From: Candidatus Saganbacteria bacterium
Lineage (GTDB): Bacteria; Margulisbacteria; WOR-1; XYC2-FULL-46-14; XYC2-FULL-37-10
NCBI GenBank assembly: GCA_016223245.1
Contig: JACRPL010000016.1
Span: 1,128-65,127 of the forward strand
DNA length: 64,000 nt
Direction of reading: 5' to 3'
Both the position numbers and the translations under genes were made by a program. Within the stretch, counting starts at the first letter, position 1. The number at the start of each line of letters is the position of its first letter. The notes beneath the pieces were generated by a model. The model searched no databases, had not been told where the DNA came from, and saw only the letters and a list, made by a program, of their open reading frames with translations. Of the stretch, positions 17,531 through 36,314 are shown one piece after another.

Positions 17531-17769
17531 GCCTCCCAAAATATTTCAAAGGAATATTGTGGTTCGCAGATTTCAATAAACTCTCCCTAAAAGAGGACAG
17601 AAATATTATTTTGTTCCAAGCGCTTGAGAAGGGTAGAATGGAGCACCTCAAATATCTGAAAAACAAGCTTGGCGCAAAAGCGATCGTTGATTTTGCAAGA
17701 AAAAATTCGAATAAATTCAGCAGGAAAAGCGTATTAACTTTCGCGGAAACGGTTTTTGGTGGCAAATAG
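17527..17769 (+). CDS. Small hypothetical protein, probable partner (AbiEi-like antitoxin role) of the downstream AbiEii-type gene
   Basis: It overlaps the start of the 17756 gene and is 80 aa. Confidence 0.3.
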   Translation: MSLPKYFKGILWFADFNKLSLKEDRNIILFQALEKGRMEHLKYLKNKLGAKAIVDFARKNSNKFSRKSVLTFAETVFGGK

Positions 17770-18415: not shown

Positions 18416-18579
18416 AGAAGCGTGCTATACTTAGGAAGGCGTAATGCGTAACGCGCGATGCGGGATGCGAGGGGGAATTATATGAAAGACGCAGCTGTTA
18501 ATTGGTTTGCAAAGGCAGATCTGACAAAATATGCGCAAGCAGGAGATATTGTTGATCGATTTGTAAAATAAATGTTAAA

Positions 18580-18774
18580 ATGAAAATAACAAAAAGATCG
18601 AAAGAATATTTTATAGATAATATTTCGCGGACAAACCAGGTTGTTTTTACAGTGCTCATAGTCGGCACATTTGTAACAGGGTTCAATATTATTGTTTTTA
18701 TTATCGGCAGTATTATTTTTCTTTTACTTTTGCTTGCAGGAACTTTTTTAACATCAAAAACGGAGGATCAATAA
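18580..18774 (+). CDS. Small membrane protein, paralog of 1084..1272
   Basis: It begins MKITKRSKEYFIDNISRTNQVVFTVLIVG followed by a second TM segment. Confidence 0.4.
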   Translation: MKITKRSKEYFIDNISRTNQVVFTVLIVGTFVTGFNIIVFIIGSIIFLLLLLAGTFLTSKTEDQ

Positions 18775-18775
18775 T

Positions 18776-18883
18776 ATGAACCAATATTTAAGCTTGGTGC
18801 CGATGGTGATATTTTTAGTTGTAGTTTTGATCTTTGTGGCTATTGTTGCGTTTAGCGGCAAGCCGCCGAAGGGGATACTATAG
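18776..18883 (+). CDS. Small hydrophobic peptide (35 aa) ending ...FSGKPPKGIL
   Basis: It follows an RBS (ggagga) and is a paralog of the 947 peptide. Confidence 0.35.
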   Translation: MNQYLSLVPMVIFLVVVLIFVAIVAFSGKPPKGIL

Positions 18884-18927
18884 GGGCTATCGGCGCAAGC
18901 AGGAGATCAGGCAAAAAATCTGATAAA

Positions 18928-19269
18928 GTGAAGGCAGGGCATAATATGGCAAAAGAATATGAATTAGTTGTAAATAATTTTTTGGATAGGATAAGCGCCT
19001 TAAGGCCAAGCATCAGCAGCATGTATCTTTTCGGTTCGCATGCAAGAGGGACCGCTCGACCGGATTCTGATTATGATATTCTCATTGTTGCGCCTAAAAA
19101 AAATAAGGAATTAAAAAGCAAGCTGTATGACGCTGTAATGGATATTGAGTTGGAAAAGGGCGCGGACATTTCGTTGAAAGTGTTAAAACAGGACCAATTT
19201 GACAGGCTTCGGGAATTTAACACGCCATTCATTAAAAATGTTTTAAAAGAAGGGATTAAAATTGCATAA
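18928..19269 (+). CDS. Nucleotidyltransferase-domain protein (solitary MNT)
   Basis: It has the LFGSHARGTARPDSDYDILIVAP motif. Confidence 0.55.
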   Translation: MKAGHNMAKEYELVVNNFLDRISALRPSISSMYLFGSHARGTARPDSDYDILIVAPKKNKELKSKLYDAVMDIELEKGADISLKVLKQDQFDRLREFNTPFIKNVLKEGIKIA

Positions 19270-19374
19270 CAGCGCGTTAATAAAAGAATTTATTTCGGAA
19301 ACTAAGAAGATTTTAAAGATCTAGAAAGAAGTTCCTGTTGACTGTTGTTGATTGATAATTAGGAGGAAATAATC

Positions 19375-21225
19375 ATGAAAAAATTAATATTGTTCCTGGC
19401 CCTGTGCTCTGCTTTCTGCTTTCTGCTGTCTGCTGTCTTATTTGCCGATGTGCCGAGGACAATAAATATCCAGGGGCGATTGACGCAAAAAGATGGCGCG
19501 CCGATAAAAGACGGCCACTATGATTTCACGTTTTTCTTGGTAGATGAAAATAACAACTTCATGTCAACGATACTTAACGGTATAAACCCGATAGTAAATA
19601 ATACAAACAAGCAAACTCTTACTATAGATAAAAATGGGATATTCAATGCAATCCTTGAATTTGATCCAACATTTAGTTTTGATCCCGCTGTTTATCAGAT
19701 CAAAAAAATTGTTTTGGTTTCCAATGTCATAATTGACCCAGGTCAGCCCAAGGGGGTTGGCTTTGCGCAAGATATTACAGCTGTCCCTTATGCGATAAAT
19801 GCTGCAAATGCCGATAAGATCGGCGGAAAAACTTTTGATGAAGCGCTAAAAGCAAGTGGTGTTTCCGTAGGCGGTGGAGGCGTTGTTAACGAAAAATTTG
19901 ATCATTTGTATGTTGGCGATCAAAACAAAAATCATATAACTATGGTACCGCAAGGCAATAGTCTGGCTATATATGCTAAAGGAAATTATGTTGGCATTAA
20001 TGCTGTTGGTTATAGTTTTGGCGGAACATTTGAAGCTGATCCTGTTAAAGGAGTAGGGGTTTCTGGAGCTGGTGGAATTGGCGTGCAGGGCATTGGCGCA
20101 ACATATGCTGGTGGTATTTTTTATGGGCCAAATATAGGCGTTTTCGGTGCGTTATCTAGCGGACCACAAAATGGAAATAATTATGGCGTCTTAGGTGTAA
20201 CGTCTATTGCTGCTGGGAAGTATCTTCCTGGCACCATTAATTCTTATGGGGTTGCAGGAGTATCAGATACGGGAACTGGCGTTTTCGGAAAGAGCGATCA
20301 ATGGATAGCGATAGATGCAAAAACTAACTCGACAAAAGTTGAAGTGGCGGCTGTACATGGAGAAGCATCCAATTTTAAAGTGTTTGGCGAACTTGGGGTA
20401 TCCCGTTATTTCGCAGGCGTTAATCCGCCCATGGGCGTATTTGGAACATCAACGGATATTGGCGTTTATGGTTCCGTCGGAGATTCCACCAAAGTGACGA
20501 CATTGTCAACAAAAAACATCCCATCAATTGGTGTAGCTGGCTGGTCGCCAGATGGGAGAGGCGTGAGCGGGGGCAGCAGTAGCGGGACGGGGGTGTTTGG
20601 GGTCTCACAAGATGGTCTAGGCGGCAAATTTGAAAGCAAAAGCAGTGATGGTATTCATGCTTCGGGTATTTATGGAGTGTATGGCCTAAGTACTTCAAAA
20701 GATGGGATAGGAATATATGGCGCAAATGTTAATGGTATTGGAGTTAGAGGATGGAGCAGTACATCTATTGGAGGAAAATTTGAAAGTGTGAATGATGCAG
20801 GAATTTCAGGATATAGCATGAAAAGCAATGGCGTCCATGGGATTAGCGATCAATCATACGGTGTCTATGGAATTAGCAAAAGCGATTTAACCGCCGGAGT
20901 GCGCGCGCAAAACCAAAATGGCGGCCCCGCATTGTTTGTTGACGGCCCAATTCAAATGCCTGCAGGCAACGCCTCTGTAACTAGCGGCTCGCCCACAGCG
21001 ACAATAAATAAGGCTGTTGGCAGGGTAAATATTTCCGGGACATCCCAGTTTGATGTAACGGTAAATAATTCTTATGTGCATAAGGATTCTATTATATTAT
21101 TGACTATAATAAATTCTAATTCTAATTATGATCAGGCTGTGACGATCAAAAATCAAGTTAACGGGGCATTTACTGTCGGGTTCCGCTCAATAACTCAAGG
21201 GTTCAATTTTCTTGTTATAAATTAA
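19375..21225 (+). CDS. Glycine-rich fibre-like surface protein (subfamily B paralog of 3621)
   Basis: Its signal peptide is encoded by (CTGCTKT)n heptamers. It has VPRTINIQGRL and VPYAINAANADKIGG, and shares 'ELGxxRYFAGVxPPMGVFGTSTDIGxYGSVG' and the C-terminal FNFLVIN with the 3621 gene. Confidence 0.6.
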   Translation: MKKLILFLALCSAFCFLLSAVLFADVPRTINIQGRLTQKDGAPIKDGHYDFTFFLVDENNNFMSTILNGINPIVNNTNKQTLTIDKNGIFNAILEFDPTFSFDPAVYQIKKIVLVSNVIIDPGQPKGVGFAQDITAVPYAINAANADKIGGKTFDEALKASGVSVGGGGVVNEKFDHLYVGDQNKNHITMVPQGNSLAIYAKGNYVGINAVGYSFGGTFEADPVKGVGVSGAGGIGVQGIGATYAGGIFYGPNIGVFGALSSGPQNGNNYGVLGVTSIAAGKYLPGTINSYGVAGVSDTGTGVFGKSDQWIAIDAKTNSTKVEVAAVHGEASNFKVFGELGVSRYFAGVNPPMGVFGTSTDIGVYGSVGDSTKVTTLSTKNIPSIGVAGWSPDGRGVSGGSSSGTGVFGVSQDGLGGKFESKSSDGIHASGIYGVYGLSTSKDGIGIYGANVNGIGVRGWSSTSIGGKFESVNDAGISGYSMKSNGVHGISDQSYGVYGISKSDLTAGVRAQNQNGGPALFVDGPIQMPAGNASVTSGSPTATINKAVGRVNISGTSQFDVTVNNSYVHKDSIILLTIINSNSNYDQAVTIKNQVNGAFTVGFRSITQGFNFLVIN

Positions 21226-21231
21226 TCTATA

Positions 21232-21639
21232 ATGAATAACACGTATATTAATAAGGAATTGCTTGCAATACTGGATAAATATAGCCCCATGCTAGTATAT
21301 TATTTTGGGTCGGCGTCAAGGGACAAGATGGGGCCCATGAGCGACATTGACCTGGCGGTTTTATGGCCTGAAAATGAAAATACCCCAATGGTAAAAAGCT
21401 TGATCCTGCAAAACGAGATCCAAAGCCGGCTAAATAATAAAAAATACGAAATTGGCTGCCTGAATAACCAATCTTTGAGCTTTTGCTATTCGGTAATATC
21501 AACAGGCAGATGCATATATGGTTCGGATCCGAACAGGGTCGCTTATGAAACAAAGATATTGGACGAATATCTTGATTTCGGATATTTGTCCGATATTTAT
21601 AACAAAGAATTCGACAAAAGGATACTTAAAAATGGATAA
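21232..21639 (+). CDS. Nucleotidyltransferase (MntA-like antitoxin)
   Basis: It has the YYFGSASRDKMGPMSDIDLAVLWP motif. Confidence 0.55.
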   Translation: MNNTYINKELLAILDKYSPMLVYYFGSASRDKMGPMSDIDLAVLWPENENTPMVKSLILQNEIQSRLNNKKYEIGCLNNQSLSFCYSVISTGRCIYGSDPNRVAYETKILDEYLDFGYLSDIYNKEFDKRILKNG

Positions 21640-21641
21640 TC

Positions 21642-22049
21642 ATGGTCAATATTGAAGAAATACACCATAGGCTCTCGGAAATAAAGGAAGCGCTCGATTA
21701 TCTTGAAAGCTCGCATGAACAAATGCGGTCGAGCAGGGATAAGTTTTTACTTGGAAGATATTTCTTGCAGGTAATGCTTGAGGCTGTATTCACGATAGGC
21801 AACCAAATAATATCCGATGCCGGGCTCAGAAAACCTTCAAATTATAAGGATATCCTGCTGATATTAAAAGAAAATGGCATAATAAGCGCAAATGAACACG
21901 AAACAATGATAAAATTTGCGGACCTAAGGAACCGGCTTGTGCATACTTACTGGAAAATTTCTTCAGAAGAACTTTTGGAAATAAGCTCTGATCTTATGAT
22001 ATTCCATAATTTTTCAGGAATTATAGTGAGATATATTTCAAAAAAATAA
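21642..22049 (+). CDS. HepT/DUF86-like HEPN toxin
   Basis: It has RNRLVHTYWKI, matching the R-X4-6-H-xY HEPN motif, and lies immediately downstream of the MNT gene. Confidence 0.5.
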   Translation: MVNIEEIHHRLSEIKEALDYLESSHEQMRSSRDKFLLGRYFLQVMLEAVFTIGNQIISDAGLRKPSNYKDILLILKENGIISANEHETMIKFADLRNRLVHTYWKISSEELLEISSDLMIFHNFSGIIVRYISKK

Positions 22050-26393: not shown

Positions 26394-27620
26394 ATGGCAA
26401 TAATTGTTCATAAATACGGCGGGACATCCGTTGGGACTCCCGAAAAAATAAACAACGCCGCAAGGCGTGTCAAAAGATTGCATGACGACGGGAATCAGAT
26501 CGTCGTTGTCGTGTCGGCAATGGGCCATACGACGGATGAATTGATTGGCCTAATGGATAAAGTAACCTCAAACCCCAATCCTCGCGAATACGACATGCTT
26601 GTATCGACCGGGGAGCAGGTTTCGGCGGCACTTTTGGCCATGGCTCTTCAAGAATTGGGCTGTCCCGCTGTTTCATTGACCGGAGGCCAAGCAGGGGTTG
26701 AAACAGAGGACATTTATAAGAGAGCCCGCATAAAGGACATTAAGCTTAATCGCATCAAATCCGAACTAAAAGATGACAAAGTTGTCGTTGTAACCGGATT
26801 CCAAGGGATCGATAGTAAAGGCGATATCATAACGATCGGCCGCGGTGGATCGGATACCTCGGCGGTCGCAATTGCGGCGGCGCTTAAAGCGGATGTTTGT
26901 GATATCTATACGGATGTCGACGGCGTATATACGACTGATCCCAGGATCGAGCCCAATGCCCGAAAATTAAAAACAATTTCATATGAAGAAATGCTCGAGC
27001 TTGCTTCCCTTGGGGCGCAGGTCTTGCATCCTCGTTCTGTTGAATTGGCAAGCATCTATGGGATAGTTATTCATCTTAGATCCAGTATCAGTGAAATAGA
27101 AGGAACATATATCAAGGAGGCATCTGAAATGGAAAAGAAAGAAGCGGTGAGGGGGATAGCATTGGACGAGAATGTCGCAAAGATCGGCATCTTAAAAGTG
27201 CCGGACAAGCCCGGGACCGCCGCAAAACTCTTTTCCGCATTGGCCGACGATAAGGTAAATGTTGATATGATAGTCCAAAGTATCCATTCGGGCGGCGCTT
27301 TTGCCGATATGGCATTTACTGTTGAACGCCCCGATGTGAAAAAAGCCGTCGATGTCACACAAAAAATATCAAATACTCTTGGAGCCGAAAAAGTCGTTTC
27401 AGATCCGGGTGTTTGCAAGGTATCGCTTGTTGGCGTTGGGATGGTATCCCAGCCGGGCACCGCGTCACAAATGTTCAAAACGCTTTCCGACGAAAAAATA
27501 AATATTCAGATGATAACCACATCTGAAATAAAGATCTCATGTGTTGTGAAGCTTGAAGACGGCAAACGAGCAGTCAGAGCGCTGCATAAAGCTTTCAGAT
27601 TGGATAAAATTGTTCAGTAA
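26394..27620 (+). CDS. lysC: Aspartate kinase
   Basis: It begins VHKYGGTSVG and has two C-terminal ACT domains. Confidence 0.85.
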   Translation: MAIIVHKYGGTSVGTPEKINNAARRVKRLHDDGNQIVVVVSAMGHTTDELIGLMDKVTSNPNPREYDMLVSTGEQVSAALLAMALQELGCPAVSLTGGQAGVETEDIYKRARIKDIKLNRIKSELKDDKVVVVTGFQGIDSKGDIITIGRGGSDTSAVAIAAALKADVCDIYTDVDGVYTTDPRIEPNARKLKTISYEEMLELASLGAQVLHPRSVELASIYGIVIHLRSSISEIEGTYIKEASEMEKKEAVRGIALDENVAKIGILKVPDKPGTAAKLFSALADDKVNVDMIVQSIHSGGAFADMAFTVERPDVKKAVDVTQKISNTLGAEKVVSDPGVCKVSLVGVGMVSQPGTASQMFKTLSDEKINIQMITTSEIKISCVVKLEDGKRAVRALHKAFRLDKIVQ

Positions 27621-28212
27621 TCTTTTTTTTGCAATAGTAGTCTCGTATCTTATTGGTTCGATCCCCTTTAGTTTGATCTTTGCGAAATTATTTACGGATA
27701 CAGATGTTAGGCAAAAGGGCTCGGGCAACGTCGGCGCTACAAATGTCCTTGTCACGACCGGAAAAAAAAGAGCCGCGATCCTATCGGTGTTTTTTGATAT
27801 TCTAAAAGGATTTGTCGCTGTCGCAATTTCTAAGATATTATTTGGAGCCGATATTTATGCCTATACTGCCGGATTGTTTTCGATAATAGGACATGATTTT
27901 CCTGTTTTTCTTGGATTCAAAGGCGGGAAGGGCGTTGCGGCCACGACAGGGGTCTTGATCGCTCTTAATCCAATAGCAATTTGGTTTTGTCTGCTGATCT
28001 ATATTGTTTCGATCTCAATATCCCGCTATCTAATATTATCGAGCATAATTACGATCGGATTTATTCCCTTTATCTTGTGGTTTTTAGGTGAAGGGTTATT
28101 TGGCATAATATTTGGTATTTTGGCGTTTCTTTTAGCTTTATTCGTCCATCGTAATGATATAATAAGACTCCTTTCGGGCAAGGAAGCAAAATTTGATCGG
28201 GGCGTAGCTTAG
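27610..28212 (+). CDS. plsY: Glycerol-3-phosphate acyltransferase PlsY (probable TTG start; the track ORF begins at 27553)
   Basis: It contains LIGSIPFSLIF, GSGNVGATNV and the HDFPVFLGFKGGKGVA motifs. Confidence 0.75.
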   Translation: MFSNLFFAIVVSYLIGSIPFSLIFAKLFTDTDVRQKGSGNVGATNVLVTTGKKRAAILSVFFDILKGFVAVAISKILFGADIYAYTAGLFSIIGHDFPVFLGFKGGKGVAATTGVLIALNPIAIWFCLLIYIVSISISRYLILSSIITIGFIPFILWFLGEGLFGIIFGILAFLLALFVHRNDIIRLLSGKEAKFDRGVA

Positions 28213-28271
28213 CTTGGTGGAGCACTCGCTTGGGGTGCGAGAGGTCGGCCGTTCAAATCGGCTCGCCCCGA
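28198..28271 (+). tRNA. tRNA-Pro (anticodon GGG)
   Basis: The acceptor stem is cggggcg/cgccccg and the anticodon loop is ttGGGgt on a ctcgc/gcgag stem. Confidence 0.65.
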
Positions 28272-28285
28272 TTCTAATCTTTTTT

Positions 28286-28362
28286 CGGAGCGTGGCTCAG
28301 CTTGGTAGAGCGCCTGGTTCGGGACCAGGAGGTCGTGGGTTCGAATCCCGCCGCTCCGACCA
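28286..28362 (+). tRNA. tRNA-Pro (anticodon CGG), encoded CCA included
   Basis: The acceptor stem is cggagcg/cgctccg, the anticodon loop is ttCGGga on a cctgg/ccagg stem, and the T-loop is ttcgaat. Confidence 0.7.
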
Positions 28363-28439
28363 GACTGTACTCTGTGCGGTTTCGGCGGACGATGGGGAAA
28401 GGCCAGCAAAACAGCCCTGCGCGATTTTTCCCCTGTGTT

Positions 28440-28902
28440 CCGCCACAAAATTATACGGCTGCCGCCATTCCCATGAGCATATTGAGCAGTTATCGCCGCA
28501 CCACATTCACCACACCGCAAAAGACCAACAAAAGGGAAATTATGGCCGCTTTTTGTTTTTCTAGGTTTTGAGTTATCTTTTAACACTTTTTGAACGGCTT
28601 CAAAAGTCGCTCGGGAAACAATTGGATCAAACTTGCCTTCGTAAGCTTCGCCGTTGTGGATTATCACAACTCAGGCGATCACTTAAACTTGCTAATGTAT
28701 GCTTGCCATCTGCAAATTCTTCAAAGGCCAATTTGATAATTCTTGCTTTCACTGGATCTGGATCAATGTTTCTAGTTTTGGGATTATTCACATAGCCAAG
28801 CGGAGCCAATCCATTCCATTCACCGCGCCTGAGTTTTTGACGTTTCCCGCGCTTCACATTTTCAGATAAGTTATCTGAATAATAAGAAATAAGGGAGGGC
28901 AT
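28440..28902 (-). pseudogene. Remnant of a large serine recombinase (recombinase domain plus zinc ribbon; catalytic N-domain missing; internal frameshift)
   Basis: ...YYSDNLSENVKRGKRQKLRRGEWNGLAPLGY... lies in ORF 28627..28902 and ...LLRCGECGAAI... in the shifted ORF 28209..28667. The remnant abuts the tRNA-Pro genes. Confidence 0.6.
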
Positions 28903-28910
28903 TATAATTC

Positions 28911-31900
28911 CTAATCAGAAGAAATCATCTGCTTATCAATTCCACCATATTGATTTATAAAAGATAATACTCGAAGACCGCCGTTCACTCCTTCTTCTGG
29001 AAGTTGAAGGATATTAGGATTTTCTTGGGCAATGGTTCTGGCACGTGTCCCAACATTTATACTTAAGGCCTCAGGAAAAGTCATAAGTAGTTCGCGATCA
29101 ATTTGATGTGTTCTGGCTGAATCAGCCATAATAAGCGTGCTAGTCATATCTATTCCTAAGGTATTTATGCAGAATCTAGCAGCATCTTCTTTGTGTTGTA
29201 ATACAACCTTAACGCTGGTCCTGCCAGCTTTATAGAGTTTTACTTCAATTCCGGTATCAGACAGCATTTCTCTCGCTTTTTCAATAAAGTGGTTTCTCGG
29301 ACTTTTAACATGGCGTAAATCTATTCGAAACTCCGGGTTAATGCGGGGCGTTCTTTGGTCTATTTCAAATTGACCCTTAAAATTCTTATCTAGTAAAGCT
29401 ATAACTCTTTGGCGAAAATCAGTAGTTATGCGACTTTTGCGATTATATTCTTCCAGATAAACTTTTGACCCCGCAGCATCAAAGGTAAATCCTCTGGTGG
29501 CACCATCAGAAAAGATCACTAGTCTATGGCGCAATGCTGCAGGAATATATTGAACAACCCTTTCATCAACATTAGCCTCAAGGTCTTCAGTTTCTAAAAT
29601 GAATCGTTTACCATTCCCAAGAATATCAAGTATTTGCTTAAGCATGCTACCGGAGAGATGCTCATCGGTTACGACTAATACTCCGTCAAGGTCAGCAATG
29701 ACATTATCAATTTTAGTAATTTTAGAAGGTTTATCTGTTTTTGTTTCTATTGCTACCCCTAACATGTTGGCTAGTTCCCTGTAATAAAAACGGGATAGAT
29801 TGGCAAACCTTTTTGATCTAACCACCCCGTATCCTTCTTGGTAAGCCAAGTGGAACTCTTTGAAGTGATCTTTATCATCAAAAAATGCAGGGGTATGTCT
29901 GTCACCATACATAAATTTTTGTCTTATTTGATGAGGAACTGCATCGGGTTCCGCGGCCGCTTGGACAAATATCACTGCCGGACCTTCTATTTTAGAAATG
30001 TCATCCAACCTGGCCGCTTGTGTATTCTTCTTTTTCCCCACTCGTAAATAAAGGTACTTATTGCCAGGGTACCAGAAATATAAACGATATGGCTGAGCCT
30101 CTTTAGGTTTATCTGCTTCCTTTTTTATGGTACTCACCAATTTGTTAAATCCATTTGTGCGGGTTAACCCATCCAAGAAATCTCTATCTTCTCCAAAATC
30201 CTCAGGAACCACATTGCCCAAGAGAGCCCTATTTAGTGCCATAAAATAATTACGGTAACCTTTAAAGGCATCCGGTATGTGCGGTGATGTCCTATGCGGA
30301 TCACTAACTGAAGTAGAAGCGTCAACTACGATGACAATCGGGTTTTGTTGAACCAATGTTCTTAATTGAGAAGAAGTAAAAAGATTAAGATTTAAAACAT
30401 ATTCATTAGTATGGCTTTCGGTGGAGCCAACTTTTGTACTTACAACCGGGATATTTGTACCTACAATTGTCTTCCTGCCATGCCGTTCCTGCAAAATTGG
30501 TGTTAAGGCTACCTCGCCATAAGAAAGATTTGCAACGACCATCACTTTTCGCCCAATTGTTTCAGCATGTTTTTGAATTTCAAGGATTTTTTCTCTTAGA
30601 AGATGTGCCTCATAAGCAACTGCGCGAACCTGAAGTTTCAGCTCTGTGGGAATATCTCTTCTATAGAAACGCCCTTTTTCGCCTTCTTCTACCATAACCA
30701 GATATTCTTCAAAGGTTAGTTCTTTTGGTGAAGATCCTTCCACCACTTTAATAGCATCAAAATAATTTAGGAGTAGGTGCAAGGGATTATTTTTATCAAA
30801 ACTACCATGTATAATTTCTCTTTCGGCTTCAAATGACGGAGAAATCGGCAATAAAGAGTCGAGCATGTTATGATCGGCCAAAACATTTAAGGCCTGGAAA
30901 AGCTTGTCCATTTTATTCCCAGCTATTTCTCTCAGCCCTTTTATGTCCCCAGGTTTAATTTTCTCCAATACTTTTGCATTTAAACTAGACGTAATTGCCT
31001 TTACATAATCCAAGTAACTCTTAACACGTTTTCTTTTCGTATCGTCAGGGAAATTTACCAGTATCATCCCACCAGGGCGGCTATTGTCCGTGAAATACTC
31101 ATATTCTTCAAAATAATCAATAAATTCTTTTATTAATACCAATTGTCCTATGCTTTCTGCCCCCCTAAGAAGCTCTGGCACAACATTTGATCCCAATGCC
31201 TTAGTTTCGCCCTTCCACCATTCCTCATCATGCGTAGGTAATTCGGGTAACAACGTCGCTTTTAAATAGGCCATTTCGTCCGTTATACTTTCATGAGACT
31301 TGCAAATAGCCGCAAGCAGTGCTTTTAACCCCATGTGCCACTCGCTCAATTCTTTCGTGCTTTTTGCTTTCGAGATTAATATAGAAAGAGCAGATTGAAC
31401 GTATGAACCAACAGCATCAGATGCGCCAAGGATAAACCAGCTATTGTTGTCATATATCCTAACTTCTTTATCAGCAATTATAGCTTTTGCTTCATTGTCC
31501 CATTCTTTCAGTTCCGCAGTGTTTTTTACCTTCCCAAGCAAAATTGGAAGTGTATACTCTAAGTGCCAATCGGGCGATCCAAATTTCTCAAAATAATCAA
31601 CAAGCAGGGTCATGATTTCTTTATTCCATTCTTCTAGTTCTTTAACATTTTCAACTTTTGAAAGCAAAACTTTCAAAAGTTTTACGCTGTCATTGATTAC
31701 ATCCTCAATTCTAGAAAGGGAAGATTTTTCGAATTTTTGAAAATAATCAGTAATCAGTAATAGAATTTCTCTGTTCCATTCTTTTAATTCATCAAAGCTT
31801 TTTACCTTCCCAACTAAAATGGGAAGAACTTCTTTTGCATAGGTATCGGCCGTAAATAGTTGACGGCAATCAGCAACCAGAGACTTTATGCTTTTTAATT

Positions 31901-33644
31901 CTTCAATACTTCCTACCGCTTTAATTAAAGTTAGAAGGGCGCTATTTTTGTAAATATACGGCTCTCCAGCAATCAGGGATAGGATTTCTTTACTCCATTC
32001 TTTTAACTCCTCGATGCTTTTCACCTTTTCAAGTAAAGCGGGAAGAATTTCTTTTATATAATGATCGGACTTTTCGTTGGGTGGCCAATGATATTCTGGA
32101 CCAAGTAAATTAATAAGTCTGAATACAAGATTCATTGTTTCATAATTTGTTTTATTCTTTTCTTTAATAATTTCGGGCCACAATTTAGATAACTTTTGAG
32201 ATGCAATCCGGGATATAGTCTGAGCACATGATCTCTCCATCTCTTCTCTTTGTGCTTCTTTTTCTTTACTACCCCATAAGTCGCCAATAATTCTGAAAAG
32301 CCCAACTTCGATTGGTGCATATTTCATTAATGTTGGTTTGCTATCTCTTGTTGCATGGAATTCAAGGCTGATATATTGCTTTGAAAATTCAATAAATTCT
32401 TCTACATTTGAAAATTCATCGGCGTTCCTGCTCGCTATTTTAATCTTTAGTGCTTCTATTAGCCGATTCCTAATTTGTTCCCCATCTTCATGATCGTAAA
32501 GGGCAATTTGAAGCCATAGATAAGCCAATAAATATGACACCTCGATGTTTTCACCGCTTAATAGATACGGCAATAAATTATAAAATAGAGGCCTACAAAT
32601 AGTAGCAAGCTTATCTTTTTTGCTATTTTCCTTACAGATGTACGCAAAGGTAATAAATGCTCTCTCTGATAATAATGGTGCATTAAGTGCTAGTGTTTTT
32701 AAAAATTCAAGACATTCTTCTGAACTGCTTTCAAGCATAAAAAGACCTAACGTCTGGATGAAAAATCCATTTTCTTTAAGATTTGGCTTACCAGCGGCTT
32801 CTTTAATCAATATCCCGGCAAATTCTGCTTTTTGCTCAGGGCTGATATTATGATAAATATAAGACATAATATTGTAAATATCTTTATTAATTTCACGAAA
32901 TATATCCCGATGATATCCGCATGAATCTAACGGCATAACGATCCCTAGCTCAAGTATCTTTCTTGCAAATTCTATTTTTTGGTCAGAAGGGAGATTATAT
33001 GCAATCTGATGCATAAGATATGTCAGCCCCTTCTCGATAGATAGGAAGGGAATGCCTAATTTCCCCTTTGTTTTTTCGCCAAAGCCTGCATATAAAAGAC
33101 GATTCCAACAAAACTCTTTCGTAAACTTGAGAAAATCAATCAAAGTCCCTGCAAGTAAAAAGCTTTTTCCTGTGCTGAGAAAAGGCATAACCCTACTTAT
33201 CTTAATCATGTTTTGATAGATCTTTAGATGTGTTTTTAATGCAATCTTGTCTTGAGATGAGTGATATAATTCTTTATCTCCAACCTTTGCAAGCAATTCT
33301 TGCAATCTTCCGATCAGTCTCAGCCCTTTTCTTTCTTTGCCGAAAGGCAAACTCAAGCATTGAGAAGTAAATGTTTCTGGGATTACGCTAAGGTCAAATG
33401 CTATGTTTGTTGCCTCTTTTACTCGGATTGGGTTAATTTTCAGTCTTCCAGTAAATCTACATAGAACATCTCTTCCCTTTAGTGCAGTCATGGTTTCATC
33501 AACCAAATGAGTTCTTTCAGCTTCTGTCTGAGCAACGGAAGATTTAATTAGAGCATTTCTTAAAAAAGGATTACCTCTTCCAAAATGATAGCCAATAAAG
33601 CCGCGTGTTCGATAAAAGATAGGGCTACTGACCATTTTTAACAT
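28911..33644 (-). CDS. Giant (1577 aa) multidomain hypothetical protein with an N-terminal helical-repeat region, a central alpha/beta domain of unknown function and a C-terminal HAD-like domain
   Basis: There is a five-fold tandem repeat of about 38 aa (KVKSxEELKEWxKEIxxLIxDYFxKF). The C-terminal region carries VIADLDGVLVV, resembling HAD motif I, and IFSDGATRG, resembling Cof-type motif II. Its DNA is AT-rich relative to its neighbours. Confidence 0.5.
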   Translation of the reverse strand: MLKMVSSPIFYRTRGFIGYHFGRGNPFLRNALIKSSVAQTEAERTHLVDETMTALKGRDVLCRFTGRLKINPIRVKEATNIAFDLSVIPETFTSQCLSLPFGKERKGLRLIGRLQELLAKVGDKELYHSSQDKIALKTHLKIYQNMIKISRVMPFLSTGKSFLLAGTLIDFLKFTKEFCWNRLLYAGFGEKTKGKLGIPFLSIEKGLTYLMHQIAYNLPSDQKIEFARKILELGIVMPLDSCGYHRDIFREINKDIYNIMSYIYHNISPEQKAEFAGILIKEAAGKPNLKENGFFIQTLGLFMLESSSEECLEFLKTLALNAPLLSERAFITFAYICKENSKKDKLATICRPLFYNLLPYLLSGENIEVSYLLAYLWLQIALYDHEDGEQIRNRLIEALKIKIASRNADEFSNVEEFIEFSKQYISLEFHATRDSKPTLMKYAPIEVGLFRIIGDLWGSKEKEAQREEMERSCAQTISRIASQKLSKLWPEIIKEKNKTNYETMNLVFRLINLLGPEYHWPPNEKSDHYIKEILPALLEKVKSIEELKEWSKEILSLIAGEPYIYKNSALLTLIKAVGSIEELKSIKSLVADCRQLFTADTYAKEVLPILVGKVKSFDELKEWNREILLLITDYFQKFEKSSLSRIEDVINDSVKLLKVLLSKVENVKELEEWNKEIMTLLVDYFEKFGSPDWHLEYTLPILLGKVKNTAELKEWDNEAKAIIADKEVRIYDNNSWFILGASDAVGSYVQSALSILISKAKSTKELSEWHMGLKALLAAICKSHESITDEMAYLKATLLPELPTHDEEWWKGETKALGSNVVPELLRGAESIGQLVLIKEFIDYFEEYEYFTDNSRPGGMILVNFPDDTKRKRVKSYLDYVKAITSSLNAKVLEKIKPGDIKGLREIAGNKMDKLFQALNVLADHNMLDSLLPISPSFEAEREIIHGSFDKNNPLHLLLNYFDAIKVVEGSSPKELTFEEYLVMVEEGEKGRFYRRDIPTELKLQVRAVAYEAHLLREKILEIQKHAETIGRKVMVVANLSYGEVALTPILQERHGRKTIVGTNIPVVSTKVGSTESHTNEYVLNLNLFTSSQLRTLVQQNPIVIVVDASTSVSDPHRTSPHIPDAFKGYRNYFMALNRALLGNVVPEDFGEDRDFLDGLTRTNGFNKLVSTIKKEADKPKEAQPYRLYFWYPGNKYLYLRVGKKKNTQAARLDDISKIEGPAVIFVQAAAEPDAVPHQIRQKFMYGDRHTPAFFDDKDHFKEFHLAYQEGYGVVRSKRFANLSRFYYRELANMLGVAIETKTDKPSKITKIDNVIADLDGVLVVTDEHLSGSMLKQILDILGNGKRFILETEDLEANVDERVVQYIPAALRHRLVIFSDGATRGFTFDAAGSKVYLEEYNRKSRITTDFRQRVIALLDKNFKGQFEIDQRTPRINPEFRIDLRHVKSPRNHFIEKAREMLSDTGIEVKLYKAGRTSVKVVLQHKEDAARFCINTLGIDMTSTLIMADSARTHQIDRELLMTFPEALSINVGTRARTIAQENPNILQLPEEGVNGGLRVLSFINQYGGIDKQMISSD

Positions 33645-33882
33645 CTCCCTTTAAAAATAGACAACACGAGTTCAATAAGCAAGTATATACTGTGCTGATT
33701 TATTTTACATCCTTTTCTGTCGACCCTCTCAGCGGACCCACATATACATCGTGAAATTTCTGCCGAAATTTCAATATTTTTCTATAACTCTCTTTGGTAT
33801 TTGTGTTCAACGTTTTAAAAAGTGGGAATGAAGATATAAAGCGCCGCGTGGGAATTATTGGCTTGCTATCGTCCTGTTGACT

Positions 33883-34110
33883 TTAATGGGTGTTCCTTTT
33901 CTTCTTTTTAGGCACAAATTCCAGAATATCCCCAACGGAGCAGTCTAATAAGGCGCAGAGTTTTTCCAGCGTCTCAAATTTAATGCCGGAAACTTCCTCA
34001 TTGTAAAGACTAGATAGGGTATTTGGATTTATTCCTGTTTTTCTGGCAATCTCAGCGGCGCGCATTTTTCGCTCCCCTAGCAATTTCCCCAAATGAATTT
34101 TTATTGGCAT
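33883..34110 (-). CDS. XRE-family helix-turn-helix transcriptional regulator
   Basis: It has a Cro/C1-type HTH (MRAAEIARKTGINPNTLSSLYNEE) and is 75 aa. Confidence 0.7.
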   Translation of the reverse strand: MPIKIHLGKLLGERKMRAAEIARKTGINPNTLSSLYNEEVSGIKFETLEKLCALLDCSVGDILEFVPKKKKRNTH

Positions 34111-34206
34111 TCCCCCTTTTCCTTTGTTGTTATCAAATTATACGCCCACAATAATACTTCAGTCAAATGCAATAATAGAAAGTACCATTTTGGGCATAAA
34201 AAGCTC

Positions 34207-34236
34207 TTGACATTTATACTACTATATTGGTATAAT
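34207..34236 (+). promoter_or_regulatory. Near-consensus sigma70 promoter (TTGACA-N18-TATAAT) upstream of the DprA-like gene
   Basis: The sequence ttgacatttatactactatattggtataat is present, with the ATG at 34275. Confidence 0.5.
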
Positions 34237-34274
34237 ATATTATCGGAAGCATATAAATATGGAGGGGGGTAGAT

Positions 34275-34835
34275 ATGAAATGTGTTGGTATCGAGGGTTC
34301 AAGAAGTCTGCCAGATAATTTTCGCTTTCATGTTCGCGAGGTTGTTTCACATCTTCTGGCAAAAGGGTGTTACATAAATTCTGGCGGCGCAATGGGAGCT
34401 GATTCATATGTAATTGCCGCGCTTCTCAGATACGGCAAGGCATACAGAGGAGTGATCTATTCGGCATGGAGTTATTTCTCTGGTTTTCCCTATTCGGTAA
34501 GGCAGGAAATCGGCGAGTTCGCCAAAAGAGGCGGGAGAATAGATTGGGGTACGGTTCAGCCCGACCCGATGGGAAAAGAAGTAATCGCTGGTCTTTTGGG
34601 AAGAAATAGAAAATTAGTGCAAAATTCTGATGCGCTAATTGCGTATTTTTATGGAGAATCCAGAGGAACAATATATACGATAAGGGAAGCAAGAAAAAAG
34701 AACCTCCCGATAATTGTTTTTGTTTGCGATCCTGTTTCATCCCGATTATATCAAAATCTCGACAGACAAATCGGTGGCCAAATCAAAATCTTCGAGATCA
34801 GCACACAATCTATGCCGGATAAACTTTTTGTTTGA
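34275..34835 (+). CDS. Short DprA/Smf-like Rossmann-fold (SLOG-family, DUF2493-like) protein
   Basis: It has GIEGSRSLP..., SGGAMGADSYVIAALL and LLGRNRKLVQNSDALIAYF...TIYTIREARKKNLPIIVF, which match the DprA core motifs. Confidence 0.55.
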   Translation: MKCVGIEGSRSLPDNFRFHVREVVSHLLAKGCYINSGGAMGADSYVIAALLRYGKAYRGVIYSAWSYFSGFPYSVRQEIGEFAKRGGRIDWGTVQPDPMGKEVIAGLLGRNRKLVQNSDALIAYFYGESRGTIYTIREARKKNLPIIVFVCDPVSSRLYQNLDRQIGGQIKIFEISTQSMPDKLFV

Positions 34836-35536
34836 TGAATATTGTAAAATCGCTTATAATAATGTTTGTTCTCAGCCAGAGGCTGATCCGCCTTTGGCGG
34901 AAAAATAGGTTCGAGCATCGTTCAGTATGTTCGATGTGCCTTTTTCATGGTATAATAACAATTATGTTCATTCCCCATGACACTCACGGGAAGCCAATTC
35001 GCTTCGCGATCCTACTTATTGTCGTATTTGCCGCTTTATTTTCATTTTACGGCTTAAAAGAAACCCGGGACAAGCAGCAGACAAGAGAACTTGAAGCAAA
35101 GGTCAAGAAGATCCAAAAAAAGCTCGATTCAACCCCTTCCGGCTGGCCGTTGCGCGGCGCGATCAATTCCGGATATGGATATCGGTATTCCCCATGGCGC
35201 GGAATGCATACAGGCATAGATATCAAGGCATCATATGGGGATCCTGTCAGGGCTACTGCCCCAGGCTTTGTTTCTTATTCGGGATGGATGCAGGGTTATG
35301 GGAAAACCGTAGAGATCGACCATAAAAATGGTTTCAAAACTTTGTACGGGCATAATAGCGTACTCGCTGTCAATGTCGGAGAAAAGATTGAGAAAGAGCA
35401 AATTATTTCTTATGTCGGCCTGACCGGCTTTTCAACCGGAGCCCATCTGCATTATGAAGTCAGGAAATATGAAAGCCCGATCAATCCGGTCGCTTTCTTA
35501 AACTTAAGCGTATTATCTGCCGGCAAGTATTTCTGA
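34832..35536 (+). CDS. M23-family metallopeptidase (LytM-like); exact start uncertain
   Basis: It has HTGIDIKASYGDPV, YGKTVEIDHKNGFKTLYGHNS and GAHLHYEV. Confidence 0.75.
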   Translation: MMNIVKSLIIMFVLSQRLIRLWRKNRFEHRSVCSMCLFHGIITIMFIPHDTHGKPIRFAILLIVVFAALFSFYGLKETRDKQQTRELEAKVKKIQKKLDSTPSGWPLRGAINSGYGYRYSPWRGMHTGIDIKASYGDPVRATAPGFVSYSGWMQGYGKTVEIDHKNGFKTLYGHNSVLAVNVGEKIEKEQIISYVGLTGFSTGAHLHYEVRKYESPINPVAFLNLSVLSAGKYF

Positions 35537-35539
35537 TCG

Positions 35540-36241
35540 ATGGGAACCCTGTATATTGTTGCAACGCCTATCGGCAACCTTGAAGATATAACTTTCCGCG
35601 CGGTCAGGCTCCTCTCCGAAGTTGATCTAATTGCCGCAGAAGATACAAGAAAAACAAAGATACTCCTTGATCGGTATAATATCAACAAACCTCTTACTTC
35701 TTATCATAAATTCAATATCAGGACAAAAACCAGCCATATTATTGGATTATTGAATGAAGGGAAAAATATCGCGTTGGTGTCCGATGCCGGAAGCCCTGGG
35801 ATCTCGGACCCGGGATTTGAGCTTATCAGGGAATCAGTTAATCAGGGCATCAATGTTGTTCCAATACCCGGGCCATCAGCTGTGATTACCGCTCTTTCAG
35901 TGTCCGGTTTAAATACCGACAAATTTATTTTCTTGGGATTTCTTCCGAGAAAACCGGGGAAGCAAAGAAAAATATTTACCGGATTGATTAATTTCGACGG
36001 AACGATTATAATCTATGAGTCGCCGTTCAGGGCCGTTAAGACTTTAAAAGAAATACTTAATATTTTTGGCGACAGGAATGTTGTCGTGGCGCGTGAGCTT
36101 ACAAAAAAATTCGAGGAGGTGGTGCGAGGGAAAATATCACATGTTTTGGGACACTTTACTGCGAAAGATGTTCGCGGCGAAGTTACGGTCTTGATCGAAG
36201 GAAAACGATCCAAGCAAGCGGCTCAATCGGGAGAGATATAA
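35540..36241 (+). CDS. rsmI: 16S rRNA (cytidine1402-2'-O)-methyltransferase
   Basis: It has the N-terminal tetrapyrrole-methylase-like motif GTLYIVATPIGNLEDITFRA and DLIAAEDTR. Confidence 0.8.
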   Translation: MGTLYIVATPIGNLEDITFRAVRLLSEVDLIAAEDTRKTKILLDRYNINKPLTSYHKFNIRTKTSHIIGLLNEGKNIALVSDAGSPGISDPGFELIRESVNQGINVVPIPGPSAVITALSVSGLNTDKFIFLGFLPRKPGKQRKIFTGLINFDGTIIIYESPFRAVKTLKEILNIFGDRNVVVARELTKKFEEVVRGKISHVLGHFTAKDVRGEVTVLIEGKRSKQAAQSGEI

Positions 36242-36314
36242 ACGGTACGCAGGTTCTAATCCTGCCTTGCGTGGAATAGAGTAACCCGGAGCTCTACTTA
36301 TAAGGAGTAGAGTT

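What the first reader, a model, noticed from the sequence alone, without database searches (positions are those of the whole stretch)
28198..34835. AT-rich genomic island beside tandem tRNA-Pro genes with a decayed serine recombinase, a giant orphan protein, an XRE regulator and a DprA/SLOG-like protein
Two tRNA-Pro genes are followed immediately by a frameshifted serine-recombinase remnant that lacks its N-terminal catalytic domain. Next comes a 4.7-kb single ORF of 1577 aa on the opposite strand, visibly more AT-rich than the flanking ilv/lysC/plsY block. An XRE HTH gene is transcribed divergently from a short DprA/Smf-like (SLOG-type) gene that sits behind a consensus promoter. This is the classic footprint of a tRNA-targeting integrative element that has lost mobility but kept its cargo. 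SLOG/DprA-like proteins and XRE switches are recurrent components of phage-defence and conflict systems, so the giant protein is a plausible effector of an undescribed system.
Basis: partly seen in the sequence, partly recalled or inferred. Interest (0 to 1): 0.8.

Follow-up and report, generated by a model that had tools for sequence, protein, structure and literature searches.

The report
Variable locus with giant ribosyltransferase-like protein
Next to two proline tRNA genes, a Saganbacteria genome carries an inserted stretch made of at least three unrelated pieces, and its "giant orphan" gene in fact belongs to a widespread unstudied family whose conserved end pairs a previously undescribed enzyme-like domain with a phosphatase.

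Summary
There are two tRNA-Pro genes, a two-frame internal fragment of a large serine recombinase, a 4.7-kb AT-rich ORF, an XRE gene and a divergent DprA-like gene behind a 12/12 promoter. Two distant relatives have plsY–tRNA-Pro–M23–rsmI with none of these four genes, so the block is an insert.

It is not one element with one cargo:
- Only the giant gene is compositionally foreign (GC3 0.31 vs 0.44±0.05).
- XRE plus DprA-like is a separate two-gene module that recurs elsewhere. The DprA-like gene overlaps the start of the core M23 gene, which suggests translational coupling.

My best reading is PRPP-dependent phosphoribosyl transfer followed by dephosphorylation, on a helical-repeat scaffold. 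This chemistry is inferred, not shown.

Linkage of family members to DprA-like genes was absent in 23 other loci, so the "defence system" reading is unsupported. A resemblance to ShosTA remains a minority possibility.

The parts
28197..28272 (+). tRNA-Pro (anticodon GGG). Its 5' end overlaps the plsY stop codon.
   Evidence: ARAGORN; Rfam RF00005, 56.6 bits.
28286..28362 (+). tRNA-Pro (anticodon CGG). It marks the left border of the insert relative to L002 and L003.
   Evidence: ARAGORN; Rfam, 67.2 bits; alignment with the L002 and L003 tRNA-Pro genes.
28455..28902 (-). Pseudogene fragment of a large serine recombinase. It covers the end of the resolvase domain, the recombinase domain and the first half of the zinc ribbon. 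It is frameshifted, and it lacks both the catalytic N-terminal domain and the C-terminal third.
   Evidence: phrog_95 integrase 5e-14 and 2e-15, profile positions 217-277 and 321-402 of 651. XisF, CcrA and CcrB partial hits. Pfam Zn_ribbon_recom.
28911..33644 (-). Giant gene: 1577 aa at most, with a likely start at 33635 giving 1574 aa. The protein is predicted soluble (no TM segment). It has helical N-terminal regions followed by a conserved C-terminal enzymatic module.
   Evidence: ORF list. Identical public call P0001 of 1574 aa. Maximum Kyte-Doolittle score 1.21. GC3 0.309.
31245..32072 (-). Five '(E/D)L(K/S/E)EW' helical repeats of about 45-75 aa (aa ~525-800).
   Evidence: DNA direct-repeat families D1 and D2. 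Motif positions 546, 619, 669, 711 and 765. Multi-stretch hits to this region (P0086, P0126, P0138).
29775..30662 (-). Domain A (aa 995-1290), a sequence-novel alpha/beta domain with a helical insert. Conserved loops follow three beta-strands: N1039-LSYG, TK-x-G1073-S1074-TE-x-H, and VVD1108-ASTS. There is also a D1256-D1257 pair. It is proposed to be phosphoribosyltransferase-like.
28929..29732 (-). Cof-type (C2B-cap) HAD phosphatase domain (aa ~1305-1572). Motif I is intact (D1318-L-D1320-G); K1485 and the A-D-S...D1516 motif IV are present.
   Evidence: Profile against PDB sequences: PfHAD1 1e-6, alpha-phosphoglucomutase 4e-5. Foldseek 4bnd 2e-11; IMP nucleotidase, PMM2 and sucrose-phosphatase follow. 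Homologues reach Pfam S6PP or Hydrolase_3. Residues checked.
33883..34110 (-). XRE-family regulator (75 aa, HTH_26). It is the partner of the DprA-like gene and may read through into the giant gene.
   Evidence: Pfam 4e-22. Homologues sit next to DprA-like genes in L036-L038 and L045-L053.
34137..34236 (.). Back-to-back promoter region. The minus-strand site is TTGACT-18-TATAAT (34166-34137). The plus-strand site is TTGACA-18-TATAAT with a TG extension (34207-34236).
   Evidence: Scan (11/12 and 12/12). The -35 and -10 boxes, the SD and the start of the plus-strand promoter are conserved across six loci.
34275..34835 (+). DprA-like protein consisting of the Rossmann domain only (186 aa). It has no SAM domain and no C-terminal domain.
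   Evidence: Pfam DNA_processg_A 33.3 bits. TIGR00732 dprA 22 bits against a cutoff of 191. PADLOC ShosA 1.6e-6 (aa 2-54 only) and PsyrA 1e-3. 19 homologues at 56-81% identity.
34835..35536 (+). M23 peptidase, a core gene that marks the right border. Its ATG overlaps the DprA-like TGA (TGATG), so the two are probably in one operon with rsmI (35540-36241).
   Evidence: Sequence. Pfam 9e-33. The junction is conserved in L038 and L039; the catalytic part is conserved in L002 and L003.

Best explanation
The region is a composite variable locus downstream of the tRNA-Pro pair in a Candidatus Saganbacteria genome. It is not a single element. It holds three independent pieces.

1. A dead internal fragment of a large serine recombinase gene, the scar of an earlier mobile element.

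2. A compositionally foreign 4.7-kb gene for a soluble 1574/1577-aa protein. About 900 aa of helical repeats form a scaffold. This is followed by a conserved bipartite module: a sequence-novel alpha/beta domain with a phosphoribosyltransferase-like core (domain A), then an intact Cof-type HAD phosphatase. The protein belongs to a large, uncharacterised family of mostly very long HEAT-repeat proteins found in Omnitrophota, Gracilibacteria, Auribacterota and unnamed metagenomic lineages.

Proposed mechanism (inferred): domain A binds PRPP and transfers ribose-5-phosphate to an acceptor held by the repeat scaffold. The HAD domain then removes the 5-phosphate. This is the same two-step logic as the glycan ribofuranosyltransferases (Bcs3 CriT plus CrpP). 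The acceptor is unknown.

3. A separate, recurrent two-gene module: an XRE repressor and a Rossmann-only DprA-like protein, expressed from back-to-back near-consensus promoters. Here the DprA-like gene has become the first gene of the core M23-peptidase/rsmI operon.

The confidence of 0.5 is a blend: about 0.85 for the composite-locus and family-membership parts, and about 0.4 for the PRPP-transfer chemistry.
For: Insertion:
- L002 and L003 keep lysC/plsY-tRNA-Pro-M23-(bactofilin)-rsmI without the four genes.
- The giant gene is the compositional outlier of the window.
- The recombinase fragment is truncated at both ends.

Family:
- phmmer against 1.84 billion representatives gave 213 hits at E<=1e-3 and 76 at E<=1e-30, all to aa ~927-1574.
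- Domain A and the HAD domain are separable. Domain A is sometimes duplicated, and HEAT repeats are common.
- Taxa are given.

HAD:
- Sequence and fold match Cof-type sugar and nucleotide phosphatases, and the DxD nucleophile motif is intact.

Domain A as PRT-like:
- The AF2 model is confident.
- Invariant Ser/Thr/Gly/Asp-rich loops follow three predicted beta-strands. One is 'hhhhVD-[AG]-S-T-S', in the position and style of a PRPP loop.
- In homologue P0077, a canonical Pfam Pribosyltran domain sits directly before the homologous HAD domain, the position that domain A occupies in the giant protein.
- CriT/CrpP chemistry is described in PMC10299916.

XRE/DprA-like as an independent module:
-.
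- The coupling to M23 is shown.
Against: - Foldseek found nothing (best E 0.07).
- Profile searches found no PDB sequence at E<=10, and hhalign against P0077 found nothing.
- Domain order (PRT-like then HAD) is the reverse of Bcs3.
- No polysaccharide-synthesis genes are nearby.
- No acceptor can be named.
- The empty-site genomes are distant (PlsY 41-48% identical), so loss in them rather than gain here is not excluded.
- The giant gene's low GC is partly shared by family members in other genomes (L043, L044). It could therefore be partly gene-intrinsic rather than a sign of recent transfer.
Confidence: 0.5

Rival explanations
1. ShosTA-like toxin-antitoxin or anti-phage pair. The giant protein would be the toxin: its PRT-like domain consumes PRPP or makes an aberrant phosphoribosylated product, and the HAD hydrolase drives or completes the reaction. 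The neighbouring DprA-like protein would be a type IV antitoxin that counteracts the damage at the DNA level. The XRE protein would control both.
For: - ShosT is a HAD-like (type III pyrophosphatase) hydrolase fused to a PRTase. ShosA is a DprA-like ssDNA- and RecA-binding antitoxin that does not bind the toxin (PMC11961720; PMC12961424).
- The window's DprA-like protein hits PADLOC ShosA (1.6e-6) and PsyrA (1e-3).
- The canonical PRTase of family member P0077 hits ShosT (1.9e-8) and PsyrT (1.8e-8) and is fused to the HAD domain homologous to the giant's.
- P0062 carries a borderline SLOG-cluster4 domain after the module (26.2 bits against a cutoff of 26.3).
Against: - The giant's own domains hit no PADLOC model at E<=1.
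- The ShosA hit covers only aa 2-54. The protein lacks ShosA's SAM domain and is about half its size.
- The two genes lie on opposite strands with the XRE gene between them.
- 0 of 23 other family loci have a DprA-like gene of this family nearby.
- DprA-like/XRE modules elsewhere have unrelated neighbours.
- The closest giant homologues sit in housekeeping synteny.
- The HAD domain here is the C2B-cap sugar/nucleotide phosphatase type, not the pyrophosphatase type.
- The family was not found in phage, plasmid or IMG/VR collections.
Confidence: 0.12
2. A single tRNA-Pro-targeting integrative element lost its integrase activity but kept the giant gene, the XRE gene and the DprA-like gene as one cargo or one system.
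For: - All four genes lie between the tRNA-Pro pair and the first conserved core gene, and all are absent from L002 and L003.
- The recombinase remnant abuts the tRNA.
- Another family member (P0046, in L040/L041) lies about 7 kb from a large serine recombinase, near PLD-like and GIY-YIG genes.
Against: - Composition separates the giant gene from the other three.
- No att repeat was found.
- The recombinase fragment is truncated on the side facing the giant gene, so the two were joined by a later deletion or insertion.
- The DprA-like-M23 junction is conserved in relatives whose upstream genes differ.
- The XRE/DprA-like module occurs on its own elsewhere.
Confidence: 0.12
3. Domain A is not a phosphoribosyltransferase. 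It would be a different Rossmann-like phospho-ligand-binding or regulatory domain. The module would then act simply as a sugar-phosphate or nucleotide phosphatase or mutase tethered to a scaffold.
For: - Foldseek and all sequence and profile searches are negative.
- The best HAD matches include phosphomannomutase, alpha-phosphoglucomutase and IMP nucleotidase.
Against: - There is a PRPP-loop-like motif at D1108.
- P0077 has a canonical PRTase at the equivalent position.
Confidence: 0.25
4. The block is ancestral in this lineage and was deleted from L002 and L003, rather than inserted here.
For: - The comparison genomes are distant (PlsY 41-48% identity; L003 has 58% GC against 43% here).
- DprA-like-M23 linkage is seen in several relatives.
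Against: - There is a recombinase scar.
- The giant gene has a GC3 deficit.
- The genes upstream of DprA-like differ between relatives.
Confidence: 0.08

Closest known systems
PRPP-dependent glycan ribofuranosyltransferase plus HAD phosphatase pairs: Bcs3 CriT/CrpP of Haemophilus influenzae type b (PDB 8a0c) and the Thermobacillus composti enzyme (PDB 7shg)
   Same: - One polypeptide combines a PRTase-like alpha/beta domain carrying helical insertions with a HAD phosphatase.
- The two-step logic (transfer of ribose-5-P, then removal of the 5-phosphate) fits an intact HAD nucleophile.
   Different: - No sequence similarity was detectable.
- Foldseek is negative.
- The domain order is reversed.
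- The HAD domain is the C2B-cap Cof type.
- There is no capsule or O-antigen gene cluster, and no GT or SH3b domains.
- The module is attached to about 900 aa of helical repeats.
ShosTA (Shosta) type IV toxin-antitoxin defence system, and the related PsyrTA
   Same: - A PRTase(-like) domain combined with a HAD-superfamily hydrolase lies next to a DprA-like gene.
- The DprA-like protein hits the PADLOC ShosA and PsyrA models.
- The PRTase of homologue P0077 hits ShosT and PsyrT.
   Different: - The giant's own domains do not match ShosT.
- The DprA-like protein lacks the SAM domain and matches ShosA only over aa 2-54.
- The genes are not in one operon, and the pairing is not conserved (0 of 23 loci).
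- The putative toxin would be 1574 aa, against about 424 aa for ShosT.
HEAT-repeat-rich giant proteins of Omnitrophota ('Archaeovorins', bioRxiv 10.1101/2023.11.21.568195)
   Same: - Homologues include 4,000-7,400-aa Omnitrophota proteins with many HEAT repeats.
- That study lists HEAT_2, HAD_2, NUDIX and Lysine_decarbox (LOG/SLOG) among the most frequent domains of such proteins.
   Different: - The window's protein is far smaller.
- It has no transmembrane segment or signal peptide.
- It lies in a Saganbacteria genome.
- Domain A is not mentioned in that paper: the word 'phosphoribosyl' has 0 occurrences.
Large serine recombinases (phage and ICE integrases, Ccr, XisF)
   Same: The recombinase domain and the start of the zinc ribbon are recognisable.
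   Different: The catalytic serine domain and the C-terminal coiled-coil part are missing, and the reading frame is broken. It is a pseudogene.
DprA/Smf (TIGR00732), the recombination mediator of natural transformation
   Same: The hallmarks of the Rossmann-fold core are present: GSR, SGGAxGxD, RNRxL and ESRGTxYT.
   Different: It scores 22 bits against the equivalog cutoff of 191. It has no SAM or DML1/winged-helix domain, is only 186 aa, and is paired with an XRE regulator.

Membership tests
Large serine recombinase (functional integrase) | N-terminal resolvase catalytic domain with the nucleophilic serine. | tested here: not met
   The remnant begins at profile position ~217 of 651 (phrog_95) or ~130 of CcrB. 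The stop codon of the giant gene lies 9 bp upstream of it.
Large serine recombinase (functional integrase) | Continuous recombinase domain plus a complete zinc ribbon and coiled coil. | tested here: not met
   It lies in two frames with about 44 profile positions missing. The zinc ribbon stops after the first CxxC, and nothing homologous follows ~28455.
tRNA-targeting integrative element | Direct repeat of the tRNA 3' end (attL/attR) bounding the element. | tested here: not met
   The repeat finder over 28150-36300 found no copy of the tRNA-Pro 3' end.
tRNA-targeting integrative element | Empty site in related genomes. | tested here: met
   L002 and L003 have tRNA-Pro followed directly by M23-bactofilin-rsmI. 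These relatives are distant.
HAD superfamily phosphatase, Cof/IIB type | Motif I DxD nucleophile, a motif III lysine, motif IV acidic residues, and the HAD fold with a C2B cap. | tested here: met
   D1318-L-D1320, K1485 and ADS...D1516 are conserved in the family. The profile hits PfHAD1 at 1e-6. Foldseek gives 4bnd at 2e-11, TMt 0.69.
Type I phosphoribosyltransferase | Sequence match to the Pfam Pribosyltran model and the PRPP-binding motif. | tested here: not met
   There is no Pfam hit on the giant protein or on 10 or more homologues of domain A. hhalign against P0077 found nothing. Only a motif-like 'VVD-ASTS' is present.
Type I phosphoribosyltransferase | PRTase alpha/beta core fold. | tested here: inconclusive
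Type I phosphoribosyltransferase | PRPP binding and PPi release. | not testable with these tools
   This needs biochemistry.
Glycan ribofuranosyltransferase (CriT/gPRT plus CrpP) | PRT-like domain and HAD phosphatase in one protein or operon. | tested here: met
   Domain A (aa 995-1290) is followed directly by the HAD domain (aa 1305-1572). The order is the reverse of Bcs3.
Glycan ribofuranosyltransferase (CriT/gPRT plus CrpP) | Homology to CriT or the 7shg enzyme. | tested here: inconclusive
Glycan ribofuranosyltransferase (CriT/gPRT plus CrpP) | Location in a polysaccharide biosynthesis and export cluster. | tested here: not met
   The neighbours here are a recombinase remnant and an XRE gene. 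Neighbours elsewhere are housekeeping or miscellaneous genes.
ShosTA | The toxin matches the ShosT model (hydrolase plus PRTase). | tested here: not met
   The giant protein and its two domains have no PADLOC hit at E<=1. Only the homologue P0077 hits ShosT.
ShosTA | Antitoxin with a SAM domain plus a DprA Rossmann domain. | tested here: not met
   The protein is 186 aa and has the Rossmann domain only. The ShosA hit is limited to aa 2-54 (profile positions 116-168 of 303). ShosA architecture is from PMC11961720.
ShosTA | Conserved two-gene operon. | tested here: not met
   The genes lie on opposite strands with the XRE gene between them. 0 of 23 family loci have a DprA-like gene.
DprA (TIGR00732 equivalog) | Score above the curated cutoff, and a multi-domain architecture. 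| tested here: not met
   It scores 22 bits against 191. The Pfam DNA_processg_A domain is met at 33.3 bits against 29.6.
XRE/Cro-C1 HTH regulator | HTH_26 / HTH_3 domain. | tested here: met
   HTH_26 scores 78.6 bits.

The most novel reading that the evidence does not exclude
Domain A defines a new, sequence-unrecognisable branch of PRPP-dependent transferases. Coupled to a HAD phosphatase and mounted on huge HEAT/helical scaffolds, it would ribosylate a macromolecular target such as a protein, a nucleic acid or a cell-envelope polymer. This would be a previously unknown modification activity shared by the giant proteins of Omnitrophota, CPR bacteria and Saganbacteria. In this genome it would have been captured next to a DprA-like/XRE module and would work as a ShosTA-like conflict pair.
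Probability: 0.1. Interest if true: 0.8.

Novelty: new variant of a known kind. Interest (0 to 1): 0.45.

Why it matters
The island itself is ordinary. The value lies in the giant gene.

The finding turns an apparent orphan into the shortest member seen here with the complete module in a single ORF of its own (window and P0001, 1574-1577 aa), within a family of more than 200 clusters. This family includes some of the very long HEAT-repeat proteins of Omnitrophota and candidate phyla, whose functions are an open question.

The conserved core contains a roughly 300-aa domain with no Pfam or PDB sequence match and a confident predicted structure. It also yields a testable chemical hypothesis: PRPP-dependent ribosyl transfer followed by dephosphorylation. 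A 660-aa soluble module with named catalytic residues (D1108, D1318) is a practical entry point for biochemistry on that family.

The work also documents a recurrent XRE plus mini-DprA module with a conserved strong promoter. Its role is unknown.

Tried and rejected
- **Word-index homology search with the full giant protein** returned only itself.
- **Pfam, NCBIfam, PADLOC and PHROGs on the giant protein** gave nothing beyond a faint sucrose-phosphatase hit.
- **Sequence searches against PDB** gave spurious hits with the whole protein and nothing with the domain A profile, even at E<=10.
- **hhalign of domain A against the P0077 PRTase** found nothing.
- **Foldseek against PDB on domain A** found nothing significant. 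The afdb50 library was unavailable.
- **Search for attR or a tRNA repeat** found none.
- **Phage, plasmid and IMG/VR collections**, searched for the module and for the DprA-like protein, gave no match. A phage or plasmid origin therefore has no support.
- **Search for conserved partners** around 23 family loci found none. There was only close-relative synteny (Zn-peptidase/miaA) and an AAA_14/DUF4143 ATPase in three loci, two of them closely related.
- **Neighbours of XRE/DprA-like modules** were checked for toxin-like genes. They were unrelated: an EamA fragment, a wHTH regulator and unknowns.
- **Rejected: that all four genes share a foreign composition.** Only the giant gene does.

Full report
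**1. What is there**

The window comes from a Candidatus Saganbacteria MAG. The DprA-like protein is 100% identical to an NCBI protein of that name on a 91.6-kb contig.

The layout is as follows:
- lysC 26394-27620 and plsY 27553-28212, both on the + strand.
- tRNA-Pro(GGG) 28197-28272 and tRNA-Pro(CGG) 28286-28362.
- A recombinase fragment on the minus strand, ~28455-28902.
- The giant ORF 28911-33644 (-).
- An XRE gene 33883-34110 (-).
- A 164-bp intergenic region with back-to-back promoter-like sites: 11/12 on the minus strand, and 12/12 with a TG extension on the plus strand.
- A DprA-like gene 34275-34835 (+).
- M23 peptidase 34835-35536 and rsmI 35540-36241.

**2. Is it an island?**

Composition: the giant gene is the lowest-GC 4.7-kb stretch of the window, at 37.3% against 42.8±1.4% (z = -3.8). 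Tetranucleotide distance peaks over it, at 0.283 against 0.11-0.18 elsewhere.

Gene by gene, only the giant gene is anomalous. Its GC3 is 0.309, against 0.443±0.050 for 29 long ORFs. The recombinase fragment (GC 0.43), the XRE gene (0.41) and the DprA-like gene (0.43) look native.

Synteny: a scan of one genome per GTDB species with PlsY found no close relative; the best hit is 48% identical. The two nearest loci are informative all the same.
- L002 has lysC-plsY-tRNA-Pro(CGG)-M23-bactofilin-rsmI.
- L003, another Saganbacteria MAG, has plsY-tRNA-Pro(CGG)-M23-131-aa ORF-rsmI-630-aa ORF.

The interval 28363-34834 is therefore extra here. No repeat of the tRNA 3' end bounds it.

The recombinase fragment matches only the middle third of large serine recombinases. 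It is frameshifted and truncated on both sides.

**3. The XRE/DprA-like pair is its own unit**

The 186-aa protein has 19 homologues at 56-81% identity. All come from short metagenomic contigs.
- In L038, L045-L051 and L053 an HTH_26 gene lies divergently upstream, about 165 bp away. In L052 a cut minus-strand ORF occupies the same position, but its family was not looked up.
- The -35 and -10 boxes, the SD and the start codon are conserved.
- In L036 and L037 the XRE gene (77% identical) is co-directional instead, and the DprA-like gene appears frameshifted.
- The genes beyond the XRE gene differ between loci: a 151-aa plus a 217-aa unknown, an EamA fragment, and a wHTH regulator. L039 has an FGE-sulfatase gene and no XRE gene.

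On the other side, the DprA-like TGA overlaps the M23 ATG (TGATG, 34833-34837). The first 34-38 aa of this M23 N-terminus are conserved directly after the DprA-like gene in L038 and L039.

In this clade, then, the DprA-like gene heads the M23-rsmI operon, and the variable DNA lies upstream of it.

The protein is only the Rossmann core of DprA. It reaches Pfam DNA_processg_A at 33.3 bits but scores 22 against a cutoff of 191 for the DprA equivalog.

**4. The giant protein is not an orphan**

The word-index search found only itself. An exhaustive phmmer search with aa 378-1577 against 1.84 billion cluster representatives found 213 proteins at E<=1e-3 and 76 at E<=1e-30. These matches cover aa ~927-1574.

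The hits are 350-7391 aa long and often rich in HEAT repeats. Named sources are Omnitrophota, Gracilibacteria and Auribacterota, annotated as 'hypothetical' or 'HEAT repeat'.

The conserved part splits into domain A (aa ~940-1290) and a HAD domain (aa ~1305-1572).
- In more distant members the two are separated by about 370 aa.
- Some proteins carry two copies of domain A, and many carry domain A alone.

The N-terminal ~900 aa are helical. They contain five 'ELKEW' repeats and no transmembrane segment. Apart from repeat-level matches, they have no detected homologues.

**5. What the module looks like**

The HAD domain:
- The family profile hits Cof-type HAD-IIB phosphatases in PDB (PfHAD1 at 1e-6).
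- The AF2 model of the module (pLDDT 86) matches alpha-phosphoglucomutase, IMP nucleotidase ISN1, phosphomannomutase and sucrose-phosphatase (Foldseek 2e-11 downward).
- The nucleophile motif D1318-x-D1320, K1485 and the motif IV acidic residues are conserved.

Domain A:
- It has no hit in Pfam, NCBIfam, PADLOC or PDB sequences, even at E<=10.
- Its AF2 model from a 24-sequence alignment is confident, with pLDDT 92.8 and pTM 0.92.
- Foldseek finds nothing significant, so the similarity is distant.
- The invariant residues sit in loops after three predicted strands: N1039-LSYG, G1073-S1074-TE-x-H, and VVD1108-ASTS, plus D1256-D1257. The third loop resembles a PRPP loop in both position and composition.

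In homologue P0077, a canonical Pfam Pribosyltran domain lies immediately before the homologous HAD domain. That PRTase matches the PADLOC ShosT and PsyrT models.

**6. Mechanism proposed**

In Bcs3, the PRTase-like CriT transfers ribofuranose-5-phosphate from PRPP to the growing polymer, and the HAD-like CrpP removes the 5-phosphate (PMC10299916).

The same two fold types, fused and conserved together across more than 40 family members, suggest the same two-step chemistry here. The helical repeats would hold the acceptor.

What is shown:
- family membership;
- an intact HAD catalytic motif;
- a confident domain A model;

What is inferred:
- use of PRPP;
- the order of the two reactions;
- the role of the scaffold.

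The acceptor is unknown.

**7. Is it a defence system?**

ShosT is a HAD-like pyrophosphatase fused to a PRTase. ShosA is a DprA-like type IV antitoxin (PMC11961720, PMC12961424).

The window places a PRT-like plus HAD protein next to a DprA-like protein that hits ShosA and PsyrA weakly. The parallel is therefore real.

Every membership feature I could test fails, however:
- there is no ShosT match for the giant protein;
- the antitoxin candidate has no SAM domain;
- the genes do not form an operon;
- none of 23 other family loci has a DprA-like gene nearby;
- there is no recurrent partner of any kind;
- the closest homologues, P0021 and P0170, share Zn-peptidase-miaA synteny;
- the phage, plasmid and IMG/VR collections contain no relative.

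I keep this reading as a minority rival.

**8. Caveats**

- The empty-site genomes are distant.
- Most comparison contigs are 1-3 kb long.
- The DprA-like co-occurrence test used a close-family profile, so divergent SLOG proteins could have been missed.
- Family genes are also GC-poor relative to their flanks in L043 and L044, but not in L040. Part of the AT-richness may therefore be intrinsic to these genes.

**9. Verdict**

The locus is a layered variable region, not one element or one system. Its most interesting content is a compact member of an uncharacterised giant-protein family. That family carries a new domain for which a PRPP-dependent ribosylation-dephosphorylation mechanism is the best available hypothesis, though it is unproven.

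Noticed in passing
window 28197-28212; L002 4252-4267; L003 10591-10609: The plsY reading frame ends inside the 5' acceptor/D-arm of the adjacent tRNA-Pro gene, an overlap of 16-19 nt. The arrangement is present in all three genomes, even though the tRNA in L003 is on the opposite strand.
   Followed up: partly
L003 10591-15540: In the Saganbacteria MAG L003, the two tRNA-Pro genes (CGG and GGG) are 4.8 kb apart and in opposite orientation. They flank M23, a 131-aa ORF, rsmI, a 630-aa ORF and a 167-aa ORF. In the window the two tRNA genes are in tandem. This suggests rearrangement between the tRNA-Pro copies.
   Followed up: partly
window 35536-35540 vs L002 5404-5832 and L003 11638-12033: The window lacks the small gene (a bactofilin in L002) that lies between M23 and rsmI in both relatives. 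The window's M23 also has a different N-terminal ~70 aa.
   Followed up: partly
L036 3975-4478; L037 2895-3398: The DprA-like homologue P0020 matches in two different frames, so it is frameshifted or mis-assembled. Its XRE partner (77% identical to the window's) is co-directional rather than divergent.
   Followed up: partly
L040/L041 2000-12760: Family member P0046, which carries domain A only, sits in a region with a PLD-like nuclease, GIY-YIG and HTH genes. A full-length large serine recombinase there is 36% identical to the window's remnant.
   Followed up: partly
P0062 (aa 1460-1601); P0077 (aa 457-592): One homologue carries a borderline SLOG-cluster4/LOG-like domain after the module (26.2 bits against a cutoff of 26.3). 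Another has a ShosT/PsyrT-type canonical PRTase in place of domain A.
   Followed up: partly
L043 5502-8597; L044 5923-10311: Family genes are 6-7 GC points below their flanks in two other genomes as well, but not in L040. Low GC may therefore be partly a property of the gene family.
   Followed up: partly
L058 15643-17010; L063 840-2147; L071 3635-4942: An AAA_14/DUF4143 ATPase gene lies next to family genes in three loci. Two of these loci are closely related to each other.
   Followed up: partly
window ~6934-8060 (+) and 17000-22000: Other low-GC stretches exist in the window: a 375-aa ORF at 37.3% GC, and 1-kb bins at 0.37-0.38.
   Followed up: no
window 33645-33882: The 238-bp gap between the XRE gene and the giant gene contains no promoter-like site on the minus strand and no terminator-like site after the XRE gene. 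The giant gene may therefore be transcribed by read-through from the XRE promoter.
   Followed up: partly
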